Shown: positions 6,001-9,000 of the stretch, piece after piece
Layout of the letters: each line of letters starts with the position of its first letter
How positions within the stretch are numbered: the stretch's first letter is position 1
Assembly: GCF_048403405.1 (NCBI RefSeq)
Contig: NZ_CP183129.1
Direction: 5' to 3' (one strand)
Source: Escherichia coli
GTDB lineage: Bacteria > Pseudomonadota > Gammaproteobacteria > Enterobacterales > Enterobacteriaceae
Length of the DNA: 64,000 nucleotides
Program-made: the position numbers

Positions 6001-9000
6001 CGCGATATTGCGCGAATTTCGGATGGTCAGATGCGTCCATCATATTGTCGATGAACTGTTGCATCGGCGGTTGCTTAATACCTTCGAGGTTGTAACCGAC
6101 GCTCATATTAAAGATGAACGATTTACCGGAATCAGAAGGCTGGAACATCGCTTCGAGAAGGTGCAGGGCAAACCAGGCTTTGAGGTATTCATCCCAGGCT
6201 TTAAGCAGGGTAAATTCGGTGGACCATTCGGTGTTAAAGCACTCGTCTTCGGCATCGATACAGGGCTTTTCCAGCTCCAGGCGGTCAAGAATTTGGACGG
6301 TTTTTAGTTCGATGAAGCGTCCGCCAGTCAGCCAGGAAGTGACAATATTTTGCGCGAGCTGCGTGTGCGGGCCAGCGGCGGGGCCGACGGGAGTGGCACA
6401 GGTTTCACCGAAGACGCTAACAGTTTTACCTTTTACGGGTGAGTAAAACTGTTGCTCGGGAATACCAAAGATTGAGCGTTGTTGTTGGTATTCATCAAAT
6501 ATGCGCGTCAAAAGTTCCTCAAACGGAATGGGACGCATAATATCCCCCATAACCCTCTCCTTAGCTTATACAGATATCATTGAGTGACCGGTGTTGAGAA
6601 ATCCGGTGGTTTAGGGGGATAGAGCAACAATCGCACCACTCTTGCCAGGTTTGGCGGGAAATATAAAAAAATGTGAGGCGGCTCGAAACTTAGGGGCTTT
6701 TTGTGAAAGAACTCACAGGTGCCAAATGAGAATTAAAATCACTCCTGAAAATTATTATTGCCAGCCCATTTATCACTTTTTCTCTTTTCTCAAAATCAGT
6801 GATTCCTTATCATTATGATAAAGAGAACTGGAAGGGTTAAATATTTGAACGCAATCGTTTAACTACGTTTTCTAAATTTCAGCATACCTTTTTTTCGCTG
6901 TAATAAAGTCGTCCGGAGTATCAATATCTAAAATTATTTCTGCATTTTCTATTTCGACGGAATAATGATCTCCCATAAGGAGTGCCTGACGCATATTGGT
7001 GATATTGGGACGCTGGATTGCCTGCATCAGGCATGGCTTTGACACTAAAATCGGATGGCCGGGAATGCCATTATGGAGTGGCAGTATTGCGCCATCATTT
7101 CGTAACGACCAGATTTTTCTAAAAATATCGATGGTGAGGGTAGGCATGTCACCGTGGGTGAGAAAACAATATTCTGTTTTTACCGCGGGTACTGCGGCCT
7201 TTACTGATGTGAGTAAACCCTGCGCATAATCTGGGTTGTGAATAATAGTGATATTGCTCTGGTTCGCATAACGTTCGTGCAGTTCATTACCACGATAGCC
7301 GGTGACTAAAATAATTCGGCTACAAAACTGCAACGCATTTTTGATACTTGTATCAAGAATTGTTCCCTGTTGCCAGGGTAACATCATTTTCCATTGCCCC
7401 ATTCTTGATGATAATCCGGCAGCGGTAATTATACAGTCGATGGCTGACATAGTGGTTCCATTATTTATAGGGGCTAATAACGCCTGATAATTGCGTTACT
7501 TCCTGATGGATTAAGTTGGGGATAATTTATCCCAGAGAGGTCATAAAGACTCGTGAAAAGTATAGTTGACCCATCGGCATTATTCATTGATTTAGGTGCG
7601 CAGAAACGTCCCACTGTGATTTCTGTTGTTGGTGCTGGGGGGAAAACCAGCTTGCTTTTTTGGCTGGCAGAACTGCTCCAGGCTAGCGGCAGGCGTGTGT
7701 TAATCACGACGACGACACATATGTTTATGCCAACGTCTCACTGGCCCGTGGTTTTCTGTCGTGATCCCGCCATGCTTCCTCATGCGTCTTTTATATCCCC
7801 CATTTCATTTTGTTTTCACAGCTGGAAAGCGAACCAGGGAAAAGTGCAGGGATTTACGCCAGAAGCGATTGATGCACTGGTACAACGATCAGAGTGTGAC
7901 GTAATTCTCATTGAGGCAGATGGCTCGCGTGGAATGCCGTTAAAAGCGCCTGATGAGCACGAACCTTGCATACCTAAAAGCAGTTGCTGCGTGATTGCTG
8001 TGATGGGAGGACATATTTTGGGTGCAAAAGTGAGCACAGAAAATGTCCATCGCTGGTCGCAGTTTGCTGATATTACCGGGTTAACACCTGATGCACCCTT
8101 GCAACTGAGCGATCTCGTTGCGCTGGTTCGCCACCCTCAGGGCGCGTTTAAAAACGTACCGCAAGGTTGTCGGCGAGTCTGGTTCATTAACCGTTTTTCT
8201 CAATGTGAGAATGCGATTGCGCAAAGCGAGCTCCTTCAACCGCTGCAACAACACAACGTAGAGGCAATCTGGCTGGGCGATATACAAGAACATCCTGCAA
8301 TCGCGCGCAGATTTGTGAATTAGCGGCCCGGGTATTCCGGGTTACTGAAAGGATATCCATTGAGGTTGGTATGAATATTTTCACAGAGGCTGCAAAACTC
8401 GAAGAGCAAAATTGTCCGTTTGCGATGGCGCAAATTGTTGATAGCCGAGGCTCGACTCCCCGCCATTCTGCACAAATGTTAGTGCGCGCCGATGGCTCTA
8501 TCGTCGGTACAATTGGTGGCGGAATGGTTGAGCGGAAGGTGATTGAAGAGTCGCTTCAGGCATTGCAGGAACGTAAGCCGCGATTATTCCATGGACGTAT
8601 GGCTCGTAACGGTGCGGATGCTGTCGGGTCAGATTGTGGAGGTGCAATGTCAGTATTTATCAGCGTCCATGGTATGCGTCCACGTCTGGTGTTGATTGGC
8701 GCGGGGCATGTCAACCGGGCGATAGCCCAGAGTGCGGCGCTATTAGGATTTGATATTGCCGTTGCTGATATTTATCGCGAAAGCCTCAATCCTGAACTAT
8801 TCCCACCATCAACCACGCTTCTCCATGCTGAGTCGTTTGGTGCGGCAGTGGAAGCACTGGATATTCGCCCTGATAATTTTGTCCTGATTGCCACGAATAA
8901 TCAGGATCGTGAAGCCCTCGACAAACTCATTGAACAGCCCATTGCATGGTTGGGGTTGCTGGCAAGTCGTCGCAAGGTTCAGCTTTTCCTGCGTCAATTG

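What the first reader, a model, noticed from the sequence alone, without database searches (positions are those of the whole stretch)
6623..6638. Candidate sigma-54 promoter upstream of ygfK, near the orphan sigma-54 activator ygeV
The minus-strand sequence TGGTGCGATTGTTGCT has the GG and GC dinucleotides at canonical -24/-12 spacing, positioned about 60-70 nt upstream of the ygfK start. YgeV is an enhancer-binding protein encoded in the same cluster whose targets I do not know; ygfK-ssnA-ygfM-xdhD may be among them.
Basis: inference. Interest (0 to 1): 0.5.

Follow-up and report, generated by a model that had tools for sequence, protein, structure and literature searches.

The report
Known sigma-54 promoter of ygfK
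The flagged 16 bases are the real sigma-54 promoter of the E. coli ygfK-ssnA-ygfM-xdhD urate-degradation operon, which was already predicted in EcoCyc and shown to bind sigma-54 by ChIP-seq in 2015; a conserved upstream palindrome shared with the neighbouring promoters supports, but does not prove, control by YgeV.

Summary
TGGTGCGATTGTTGCT lies at 6638..6623 on the minus strand, with GG-N10-GC spacing, and the predicted start is 62 nt before the ygfK ATG.

Sequence alone is weak evidence. My sigma-54 matrix scores the site 11.85 bits, and 64 kb of random sequence yields about 6 sites that good.

The site is nevertheless real and already published. Bonocora et al. 2015 (Table 1, OS31) list exactly this 17-mer as a sigma-54 ChIP-seq peak (26-fold above threshold) and mark it as predicted in EcoCyc.

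In 80 ygfK loci from other species, 76 have the homologous motif as the best hit upstream of ygfK. TGG and TTGC are essentially invariant.

The YgeV idea is also in the literature: ygfK, ssnA, ygfM and xdhD belong to the "YgeV iModulon". It has not been shown directly.

What I add is a candidate enhancer, the palindrome T[AC]TCA-N3-TGA[TG]A. It sits about 160 or 181 nt upstream of the promoter in 60 of 73 non-Escherichia loci. It recurs at the ygeW, xdhA, yqeB and ygfT sigma-54 promoters. ygfT is the one gene reported to depend on YgeV.

A perfect CRP site lies at -97.5. No IHF site is present.

Verdict: already known, low interest. The enhancer/CRP architecture is a testable extra.

The parts
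6623..6639 (-). Sigma-54 core promoter of ygfK, GTGGTGCGATTGTTGCT. The -24 GG is at 6637-6636 and the -12 GC at 6625-6624.
   Evidence: Sequence. Matrix score 11.85 bits. Identical 17-mer listed as sigma-54 ChIP-seq site OS31, 26-fold above threshold. Homologous motif in 76/80 ygfK loci of other species.
6612..6612 (-). Predicted transcription start: 12 nt after the C of the -12 GC, which equals 19 nt after the motif centre.
   Evidence: Inference from promoter geometry. It reproduces the 62-nt start-to-ATG distance given in PMC4591121 Table 1. Not mapped experimentally in any paper I could read.
6587..6607 (-). Hairpin near the 5' end of the leader, ACCGG-N11-CCGGU, at +6..+26.
   Evidence: Minimum-free-energy fold of the first 45 nt. 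A hairpin at the same place with different stem sequences occurs in most orthologues (TGTGG/CCACA, AGAGGAU/AUCCUCU, GGGG/CCCC). RNAalifold on an out-of-register alignment gave nothing. No Rfam match at the gathering score.
3452..6550 (-). ygfK coding sequence (1032 aa), first gene of ygfK-ssnA-ygfM-xdhD. Shine-Dalgarno AAGGAG at 6562-6557.
   Evidence: ORF list. RefSeq annotation of identical DNA. Gene order ygfK-ssnA-ygfM-xdhD conserved. Enzyme role: 2,8-dioxopurine (isoxanthine) reductase.
6672..6687 (-). Conserved box TTCGA-N6-TCACA centred at -67.5. The right half matches the CRP consensus and the left half is weak.
   Evidence: TT[AC]GA-N6-TCACA at -67.5/-68.5 in 34 orthologous loci. In two loci that lack the -97.5 site it reads TGCGA-N6-TCACA, one mismatch from the CRP consensus. 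Function is inferred.
6702..6717 (-). CRP site TGTGAgttcttTCACA centred at -97.5.
   Evidence: The only perfect TGTGA-N6-TCACA in the 64-kb window. Present with 0-1 mismatch at -97.5/-98.5 in most Enterobacterales loci. ygfK is listed as a CRP genomic-SELEX target in PMC3105977.
6727..6741 (-). Conserved box TGATTTTAATTCTCA centred at -122. It holds enhancer-type half-sites TGAT and TCTCA.
   Evidence: Consensus A.TGATT.T.ATTCTCATTT in the alignment of 76 upstream regions. It shares ATGAGAATTA with the ygeW enhancer. Its role as an extra YgeV half-site is inferred.
6787..6798 (-). Conserved box TGATTTTGAGAA at about -178. In other genera it reads TTTTGATAA.
   Evidence: Alignment columns conserved across Enterobacterales. 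Role is inferred.
6806..6822 (.). Candidate enhancer (upstream activating sequence): palindrome TATCA-N3-TGATA centred at -202.
   Evidence: Zero mismatches in 63/75 orthologous regions, starting 160/161 or 181/182 nt before the sigma-54 17-mer. Density 8.3/kb in that 100-nt window against 0.018/kb elsewhere in 783 kb. Top hit of the derived matrix in the window.
6849..6864 (+). PurR-box-like element ACGCAATCGTTTAACT, just after the mocA stop codon.
   Evidence: One mismatch to ACGCAANCGNTTNCNT. Present with 0-2 mismatches at a fixed position in 19 loci. Its AACGATTGCGT half equals the predicted PurR site of yieG/purP in PMC4576408. Binding not tested.
16259..16275 (-). Sigma-54 promoter of ygeW (CTGGCACACTTATTGTT), in the same proposed regulon.
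   Evidence: Matrix score 15.8. ChIP-seq site OS30. Enhancer palindrome TCTCATATTGATA at 16476-16488, CRP-like site at 16318-16333 (centre -77.5) and PurR-like box at 16366-16381.
22180..22196 (-). Sigma-54 promoter of xdhA (CTGGCGTAAATCTTGCC).
   Evidence: Matrix score 11.4. ChIP-seq site OS29, experimentally confirmed per EcoCyc. Enhancer-like sites at 22313-22329 (12.6 bits) and 22292-22308 (8.1 bits).
7954..7970 (+). Sigma-54 promoter inside yqeC that drives yqeB (TGAGCACGAACCTTGCA).
   Evidence: ChIP-seq site IS34, validated by promoter mutation in PMC4591121. Enhancer-type palindrome TCTCAATGTGAGA at 8198-8210, 223 nt downstream of its predicted start. CRP-like site at 7895-7910, centre -78.5.
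16644..18422 (+). ygeV, the candidate activator (592 aa).
   Evidence: Pfam: Sigma54_activat 2e-70, AAA_lid_14, HTH_8, PAS, a weak GAF, and no receiver domain.

Best explanation
The flagged bases are the -24/-12 core of the sigma-54 promoter that transcribes ygfK-ssnA-ygfM-xdhD. These genes encode the 2,8-dioxopurine branch of anaerobic urate breakdown.

1. RNA polymerase with sigma-54 sits on the promoter as a closed complex whether or not the operon is induced. This step is shown by published ChIP-seq.
2. Opening the complex needs an AAA+ enhancer-binding protein. The most likely one is YgeV, bound to the conserved palindrome TATCA-N3-TGATA about 200 bp upstream, with further half-sites at about -178 and -122. 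YgeV would reach the polymerase by DNA looping. This step is inferred from a shared, position-conserved element and from co-expression.
3. CRP-cAMP at -97.5, and perhaps at the weaker site at -67.5, lies where IHF normally lies in such promoters. It probably bends the DNA to help looping. That would make expression depend on both a purine or urate signal and the absence of glucose. The site and in-vitro CRP binding are known; the architectural role is inferred.
4. A hairpin near the 5' end of the 62-nt leader probably stabilises the mRNA. This step is inferred.
For: **Promoter**
- Exact 17-mer listed as a sigma-54 ChIP-seq peak, 26-fold above threshold, and predicted in EcoCyc.
- ygfK was reported up on sigma-54 overexpression.
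- The motif is conserved upstream of ygfK in 76/80 loci, from Escherichia to Aeromonas, Vibrionaceae, Shewanella and Rhodoferax.

**Enhancer**
- The palindrome is exact in 60/73 non-Escherichia loci, in a 100-nt window 120-220 nt upstream of the promoter. That is about 460-fold enrichment over the rest of the loci.
- The main spacings are 160/161 and 181/182 nt, a difference of 21 nt or two helical turns.
- The matrix built from these sites gives its best window hits at the ygfK, ygeW, yqeC/yqeB and xdhA promoters.
- All four exact T[AC]TCA-N3-TGA[TG]A matches in the 64-kb window lie in the urate cluster.
- Outside the window, the only exact match in 8 kb around MG1655 ygfT lies 178 nt upstream of the ygfT sigma-54 motif. 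ygfT is the gene reported reduced in a ygeV mutant.
- In Parendozoicomonas a ygeV homologue sits directly upstream of ygfK, with the palindrome 174 nt before a sigma-54-like motif. In Endozoicomonas a second palindrome-plus-promoter pair precedes ygfM.

**YgeV**
- It is a sigma-54 activator with PAS and HTH_8 domains.
- ygfK-ssnA-ygfM-xdhD are in the YgeV iModulon.

**CRP**
- The only perfect consensus site in the window, conserved in Enterobacterales.
- ygfK, ygeV<>ygeW and ygfT<>ygfU are CRP genomic-SELEX targets.
- Urate degradation is glucose-repressed in E. coli.
- No IHF consensus lies between enhancer and promoter.

**Induction**
- ygfK is highly induced by uric acid.
Against: - By sequence alone the core promoter is a below-average match (11.85 bits) and not rarer than chance in 64 kb.
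- No held paper maps the start site, or shows rpoN- or ygeV-dependence of ygfK by a direct assay.
- No YgeV-DNA binding data exist in the literature I could search, so linking the palindrome to YgeV rests on guilt by association.
- A genomic SELEX study with sigma-54 holoenzyme (PMC8743547) lists the ygeV/ygeW spacer but does not mention ygfK.
- The yqeB promoter of the same cluster was seen induced under nitrogen limitation, so another activator such as NtrC could act on some of these promoters.
- Enhancer-to-promoter distances differ among the E. coli promoters: 131, 178, 181 and 213 nt, and downstream for yqeB.
- CRP has been described as an inhibitor at some sigma-54 promoters (my own knowledge of glnAp2 and dctA). 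Its sign here is inferred only from glucose repression of the pathway.
Confidence: 0.75

Rival explanations
1. The sigma-54 site is a genuine promoter, but the activator is not YgeV. Another enhancer-binding protein, for example NtrC under nitrogen limitation, or several activators, turn it on. The palindrome would then bind a different regulator.
For: The yqeC-internal promoter of the same cluster was induced under nitrogen limitation. No direct YgeV binding or dependence data for ygfK were found. Urate is a nitrogen source, so nitrogen control would be sensible (inference).
Against: The same palindrome marks all five sigma-54 promoters of the cluster, including ygfT, whose expression falls in a ygeV mutant. 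A ygeV homologue lies next to the palindrome in a distant genome. The palindrome does not resemble the NtrC site TGCACC-N5-GGTGCA (my own knowledge). The genes form one co-expression module named after YgeV.
Confidence: 0.12
2. Sigma-54 binds here without producing transcripts, as at many ChIP-seq sites. ygfK would instead be transcribed by sigma-70 polymerase, from a CRP-activated promoter in the spacer or by read-through from mocA.
For: Bonocora et al. stress that most sigma-54 sites were transcriptionally silent in their conditions. A perfect CRP site lies in the spacer. No intrinsic terminator was found after mocA. A weak sigma-70-like pair, TTAACC-17-CATAAT, overlaps the palindrome.
Against: Sigma-70-like matches in the spacer are no more frequent than in shuffles (2 against 1.5) and the match on the ygfK strand overlaps the palindrome itself. 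The CRP centre is not at a class I or II distance from any good -10 element (my reading). The -24/-12 elements are invariant across gamma-proteobacteria with free flanks, and keep a fixed distance to the other conserved boxes, which implies selection on the sigma-54 promoter itself. ygfK was reported up on sigma-54 overexpression. ygfK is co-expressed with the other sigma-54 operons of the cluster, and mocA is not in that listed module.
Confidence: 0.08
3. Chance resemblance: the 16-mer is not bound by sigma-54 and has no function.
For: Sites this good are expected about 6 times per 64 kb, and the -24 element departs from the consensus at two positions.
Against: ChIP-seq peak 26-fold above threshold on this exact motif. 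Homologous motif in 76/80 loci of other species.
Confidence: 0.01

Closest known systems
ygfKp, the sigma-54 promoter predicted in EcoCyc and mapped as ChIP-seq site OS31 by Bonocora et al. 2015 (PMC4591121)
   Same: It is the same object. The 17-mer is identical, the downstream gene is the same, and the predicted start-to-ATG distance is the same 62 nt. The 65-nt core is identical in K-12.
   Different: Nothing differs in the core. The window comes from a non-K-12 strain.
Sigma-54 promoters of the same cluster: xdhA (OS29), ygeW (OS30), ygfT (OS32) and yqeC-internal/yqeB (IS34)
   Same: All are bound by sigma-54 in vivo. All carry the T[AC]TCA-N3-TGA[TG]A palindrome within about 130-240 bp. 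ygeW and yqeB also have CRP-like sites at about -78.
   Different: ygfK has the strongest ChIP signal of the five (26, against 3-11). It has a TGGTGC rather than TGGCAC -24 element, a perfect CRP site at -97.5 plus a second half-good site at -67.5, and the most symmetric palindrome.
Classical activator-dependent sigma-54 promoters with an IHF bend, such as glnHp2, nifH and Pu (my own knowledge)
   Same: A remote upstream enhancer, a closed complex at -24/-12, and a protein-binding site in the intervening DNA.
   Different: No IHF consensus lies between enhancer and promoter. CRP sites occupy that position instead.
prpBCDE promoter of E. coli and Salmonella: sigma-54 plus PrpR with CRP-dependent catabolite control (my own knowledge; prpB is site OS01)
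   Same: A catabolic operon under a pathway-specific enhancer-binding protein without a receiver domain, also subject to cAMP-CRP.
   Different: Different activator and enhancer sequence. The mechanism of the CRP effect at ygfK is untested.
DioR regulon of Clostridiales (Nie et al. 2019, PMC6615313)
   Same: A sigma-54 enhancer-binding protein predicted to control ygeW-ygfK-ssnA-ygeY, yqeB, pbuX and dpaL(ygeX). This suggests that sigma-54 control of the pathway spans phyla.
   Different: The DioR binding motif is shown only in a figure I could not read. Orthology of DioR and YgeV was not tested here.

Membership tests
Sigma-54 (RpoN)-dependent promoter | GG and GC dinucleotides separated by exactly 10 bases, within TGGCAC-N5-TTGCW-like elements | tested here: met
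   TGGTGCGATTGTTGCT at 6638..6623. 11.85 bits with a matrix of 38 ChIP-proven sites.
Sigma-54 (RpoN)-dependent promoter | Occupied by sigma-54 holoenzyme in vivo | not testable with these tools
   Reported: ChIP-seq peak OS31, 26-fold above threshold, on this motif in MG1655 (PMC4591121). The promoter core is identical in K-12.
Sigma-54 (RpoN)-dependent promoter | Transcription start about 12 nt downstream of the GC, and rpoN-dependent transcription | not testable with these tools
   Only indirect evidence: ygfK was among the genes raised by sigma-54 overexpression in a microarray study, as cited in PMC4591121. The main text of that study does not name ygfK and its supplement is not held. No start-site mapping was found.
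Sigma-54 (RpoN)-dependent promoter | Evolutionary conservation of the -24/-12 elements at the orthologous position | tested here: met
   76/80 loci. TGG 75/75 and TTGC 74-75/75, with flanks unconserved and a fixed distance to the other conserved boxes. Rows were selected by matrix score, so part of the invariance is circular.
Sigma-54 (RpoN)-dependent promoter | Remote enhancer for an AAA+ activator | tested here: met
   A palindrome 160-182 nt upstream in 60/73 loci, about 460-fold enriched. The protein that binds it was not tested.
YgeV regulon | A common cis-element shared with other promoters of the proposed regulon, including a YgeV-dependent one | tested here: met
   The same palindrome is present at ygeW, xdhA and yqeB and at ygfT in MG1655, where it is the only exact match in 8 kb.
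YgeV regulon | Co-expression with the other members | not testable with these tools
   Reported: the YgeV iModulon list contains ygfK, ssnA, ygfM and xdhD.
YgeV regulon | Expression lost in a ygeV mutant; YgeV binds the upstream DNA | not testable with these tools
   Reported only for ygfT expression (Iwadate and Kato 2019, as cited). That paper is not held. There are no binding data.
CRP-regulated promoter | Match to TGTGA-N6-TCACA | tested here: met
   Perfect match at 6702-6717, the only one in the window. Conserved at -97.5/-98.5 in Enterobacterales.
CRP-regulated promoter | CRP binding and a cAMP/CRP effect on expression | not testable with these tools
   ygfK is listed as a CRP genomic-SELEX target. 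The pathway is glucose-repressed. There is no promoter-level assay.

The most novel reading that the evidence does not exclude
The five sigma-54 promoters of the enterobacterial urate/purine catabolic cluster (ygfK, ygeW, xdhA, ygfT, yqeB) may form one regulon. It would be read through a previously undescribed YgeV enhancer, T[AC]TCA-N3-TGA[TG]A. CRP rather than IHF would be the DNA-bending partner between enhancer and promoter. The result would be a purine-AND-no-glucose gate conserved across gamma-proteobacteria, possibly with an extra PurR input at ygfK and ygeW.
Probability: 0.4. Interest if true: 0.45.

Novelty: already known. Interest (0 to 1): 0.2.

Why it matters
The operon behind this promoter encodes the committed steps of the recently solved anaerobic urate degradation pathway: XdhD-YgfM, YgfK and SsnA. 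That pathway is being engineered into probiotic E. coli to lower urate.

Knowing how the operon is switched on matters for that engineering. The likely inputs are sigma-54, a pathway-specific activator, CRP and perhaps PurR. It also matters for understanding why the pathway is silent in ordinary laboratory media.

The promoter itself adds nothing new. The candidate enhancer and the CRP-for-IHF arrangement give a concrete and cheap set of mutations to test.

Tried and rejected
1. My first pattern search used the wrong spacing (TGG-N9-TTGCW) and missed the site. I repeated it with N8.
2. The overlapping alternative promoter CTGGCAAGAGTGGTGCG (6648..6632, 11.62 bits) was considered and rejected. 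It is not conserved outside Escherichia and one close Citrobacter.
3. IHF: no match with at most one mismatch to WATCAANNNNTTR between 6640 and 6871. The conserved box at -67.5 reads better as a half-good CRP site than as an IHF site.
4. The sigma-70 promoter and terminator scan of the spacer showed nothing beyond chance, and no terminator after mocA.
5. An Rfam scan of the leader and spacer found only a sub-threshold microRNA match, which is meaningless.
6. RNAalifold on the leaders gave no consensus structure because the alignment was out of register. Single-sequence folds were used instead.
7. Literature that could not be obtained:
   - Iwadate and Kato 2019 is not held.
   - The main text of Zhao et al. 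2010 does not name ygfK and its supplement is not held.
   - The supplements of the iModulon paper are not held.
   - The DioR motif is shown only in a figure.
8. A ygeV homologue within 4 kb of ygfK was found in only one of the 80 loci.
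Full report
**Where we are.** The window is E. coli chromosome from a strain other than K-12. The 701 bases around the finding are 100% identical to several clinical isolates, where they are annotated mocA and ygfK. The orientation is the reverse of MG1655. Genes around the finding, from the ORF list:
- ygfM 1291..2070 (-)
- ssnA 2121..3449 (-)
- ygfK 3452..6550 (-)
- mocA/ygfJ 6872..7450 (-)
- yqeC 7553..8323 (+)
- yqeB 8371..9996 (+)
- yqeA, hyuA, ygeY, ygeX and ygeW on the minus strand up to 16168
- ygeV 16644..18422 (+)
- xdhCBA 18462..22124 (-)

**The observation.** The minus strand at 6638..6623 reads TGGTGCGATTGTTGCT. GG and GC are ten bases apart, and the -12 element is a perfect TTGCT. 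The -24 element is TGGTGC instead of TGGCAC, a variant that recurs among sigma-54 sites proven by ChIP. Placing the C of the GC at -12 puts the start at 6612, 62 nt before the ygfK ATG.

On sequence alone the match is unremarkable.
- TGG-N8-TTGCW occurs 7 times in the window against 6.2 expected.
- I built a matrix from 38 intergenic ChIP-seq sites, leaving out the sites of this cluster. It gives the site 11.85 bits, about fifth in the window but in the bottom fifth of true sites.
- Simulated 64-kb sequences contain 6.1 +/- 2.7 sites that good.
- The position does help: the expectation in the 321-bp spacer on the correct strand is 0.015.
- A second candidate, overlapping and shifted by 9 bp (6648..6632), scores almost the same.

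**It is already known.** Bonocora et al. 2015 (PMC4591121), Table 1, row OS31, give the following:
- peak centre 3014019
- 26-fold above threshold
- motif GTGGTGCGATTGTTGCT
- gene ygfK
- distance 62
- flag 'P', meaning predicted in EcoCyc

The paper also says ygfK was one of five genes from an earlier sigma-54 overexpression microarray that their ChIP-seq confirmed. The same tables list sigma-54 sites at xdhA (OS29), ygeW (OS30) and ygfT (OS32). They also list a site inside yqeC (IS34), which the authors proved by mutation to be the yqeB promoter. The 65-nt core around the ygfK site is identical in K-12 and at least 99% identical in 4481 of the 5164 complete E. coli genomes that carry it. The published K-12 result therefore applies to this window.

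**Conservation.** A scan of one genome per species found 391 ygfK relatives, and I kept the best 80 loci.
- In 76 of them the best sigma-54 matrix hit in the 400 nt before ygfK is the homologous site, YTGG[CT][GC][CT]GATTGTTGCT, centred 62-165 nt before the ATG.
- The taxa include Escherichia, Citrobacter, Klebsiella, Raoultella, Edwardsiella, Serratia, Morganella, Hafnia, Aeromonas, Photobacterium, Vibrio, Shewanella, Ferrimonas and Rhodoferax.
- TGG is invariant and TTGC nearly so, while the flanking bases are free. Because I picked the rows by matrix score, part of that invariance is selection. The fixed distance to the other conserved boxes is independent of the selection.
- The overlapping candidate is not conserved, which settles which site is real.
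- Gene order yqeB-yqeC <> mocA-ygfK-ssnA-ygfM-xdhD is also conserved.

**The rest of the control region.** Anchoring the upstream regions on the promoter shows five further conserved blocks.

(a) *A palindrome, TATCA-N3-TGATA, at 6808-6820, centred at -202.*
- It is exact in 63 of 75 orthologous regions. It starts 160/161 or 181/182 nt before the promoter 17-mer, a step of two helical turns.
- Leaving out Escherichia, 60 of 73 loci have it in a 100-nt window. The density there is 8.3 per kb, against 0.018 per kb in the remaining 776 kb.
- Lonsdalea and Symbiopectobacterium have TCTCA-N3-TGAGA at the same place, so the half-site is T[AC]TCA.

(b, c) *Two boxes with single half-sites:* TGATTTTGAGAA at about -178 and TGATTTTAATTCTCA at -122.

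(d) *A perfect CRP site, TGTGAgttcttTCACA, at -97.5.*
- It is the only perfect one in the window.
- It is kept with 0-1 mismatch in most Enterobacterales.

(e) *TT[AC]GA-N6-TCACA at -67.5, present in 34 loci.* In two species that lack the -97.5 site it becomes TGCGA-N6-TCACA, one mismatch from the CRP consensus.

There is no IHF consensus between enhancer and promoter. I found no convincing sigma-70 promoter and no terminator after mocA.

**Is the palindrome a regulon signature?**
- A matrix built from the orthologous palindromes, scanned over the whole window, gives these top hits:
  - ygfK, 21.2 bits
  - 207 nt upstream of the ygeW promoter, 16.8 bits
  - inside yqeC, 223 nt downstream of the yqeB promoter start, 14.2 bits
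  - two sites 125 and 104 nt upstream of the xdhA promoter, 12.6 and 8.1 bits
- The simple pattern with at most one mismatch gives 11 hits against 3.1 expected, and four of them are next to these promoters.
- All four exact matches to T[AC]TCA-N3-TGA[TG]A in the 64 kb lie in the urate cluster.
- As a test outside the window I fetched the MG1655 ygfT-uacT region. The only exact match in 8 kb, and by far the best matrix hit (16.8 bits against 3.7 for the next), is TCTCATATTGATA, 178 nt upstream of the ygfT sigma-54 motif.
- ygfT is the gene whose expression was reported to fall in a ygeV mutant (Iwadate and Kato 2019, as cited in PMC10602906).
- In Parendozoicomonas a ygeV homologue lies directly upstream of ygfK, with a 19-bit palindrome 174 nt before a sigma-54-like motif. 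In Endozoicomonas a second palindrome-plus-promoter pair precedes ygfM.

**YgeV and the literature.**
- YgeV (592 aa) has a weak GAF match, a PAS domain, a sigma-54 interaction AAA+ domain, an AAA lid and an HTH_8 DNA-binding domain. It has no receiver domain.
- ygeV is needed for formate-dependent urate consumption, and ygfK is strongly induced by urate.
- YgfK is the NAD(P)H-dependent 2,8-dioxopurine (isoxanthine) reductase of the anaerobic urate pathway.
- CRP genomic SELEX lists ygfK, ygeV<>ygeW and ygfT<>ygfU as targets, and urate degradation is glucose-repressed.
- In Clostridiales a sigma-54 activator, DioR, is predicted to control ygeW-ygfK-ssnA-ygeY and yqeB.
- I found no paper with YgeV binding data or with a direct test of ygfK in rpoN or ygeV mutants.

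**Most likely mechanism.**
1. Sigma-54 polymerase holds the promoter closed (shown).
2. YgeV, bound to the palindrome and its satellite half-sites about 120-200 bp upstream, opens it by looping (inferred, about 0.7).
3. CRP-cAMP between them bends the DNA in place of IHF and gives catabolite control (inferred, about 0.6).
4. The signal sensed by the GAF/PAS part of YgeV is probably urate or a pathway intermediate (inferred from induction).

Rivals:
- another activator, such as NtrC, about 0.12
- a silent sigma-54 site with sigma-70 or read-through transcription, about 0.08
- chance, about 0.01

**Verdict.** The promoter is in EcoCyc and in a 2015 ChIP-seq table, and the YgeV link has been proposed from transcriptome decomposition. 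Interest is low for the finding as stated.

The by-products are modestly useful and directly testable. They are a sharply defined candidate YgeV enhancer shared by five promoters, CRP sites where IHF would be expected, PurR-like boxes and a conserved leader hairpin.

Noticed in passing
window 6849-6864 (+) and 16366-16381: There are PurR-operator-like boxes at two promoters. ACGCAATCGTTTAACT lies just after the mocA stop, about 240 bp upstream of the ygfK start. It is conserved with 0-2 mismatches at a fixed position in 19 loci (Escherichia, Citrobacter, Trabulsiella, Edwardsiella, Buttiauxella, Serratia, Hafnia). ACGAAAACGATTGGCT lies in the ygeV-ygeW spacer. Together they suggest a PurR, or PurR-like, input into purine catabolism.
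   Followed up: partly
window 6587-6607 (-): A hairpin lies at +6..+26 of the predicted ygfK leader (ACCGG-N11-CCGGU). Most orthologues have a hairpin at the same place with quite different stem sequences, which suggests selection for structure, perhaps for mRNA stability. The mean z-score against shuffles is only -0.9.
   Followed up: partly
window 8198-8210 (inside yqeC): The enhancer-type palindrome TCTCAATGTGAGA lies downstream (+223) of the yqeC-internal sigma-54 promoter (7954-7970) and about 165 nt before the yqeB ATG. Exact palindromes also sit inside yqeC in Edwardsiella, Serratia sp. DD3 and Shewanella benthica. This would be an enhancer acting from within the long 5' UTR described by Bonocora et al.
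   Followed up: partly
window 14632-14644 (inside ygeX): There is an exact palindrome TATCAAGATGATA within the ygeX coding sequence. No good sigma-54 motif lies at the usual distance. It may be chance or an internal enhancer for downstream genes.
   Followed up: no
window 16318-16333 and 7895-7910: CRP-like sites with one mismatch are centred at -77.5 and -78.5 from the predicted starts of the ygeW and yqeB sigma-54 promoters. Three of the six window hits with at most one mismatch therefore sit 78-98 bp upstream of sigma-54 starts.
   Followed up: partly
window 2695-2711 (-), 60703-60719 (+), 15252-15268 (-): These sigma-54 matrix hits score as well as or better than the ygfK site (13.6, 13.3 and 11.6 bits). 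They lie inside coding sequences (ssnA and ygeW for the first and third; the second was not examined) and are absent from the high-stringency ChIP-seq tables. They show how weak the matrix is on its own.
   Followed up: no
whole window: The base composition is A 27.6, C 20.7, G 23.3, T 28.4%, about 44% G+C, which is low for E. coli. From the MG1655 coordinates, much of the window beyond about 23 kb should be the low-G+C ETT2 type III secretion island region (my own knowledge, not checked).
   Followed up: no
L079 8736-8948 (Endozoicomonas): In this genome ygfM has its own strong sigma-54 motif, CTGGCCTGAATTATGCT (15.4 bits), with two palindromes 183-196 nt upstream. The operon is therefore split differently while keeping the same enhancer-promoter module.
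   Followed up: no
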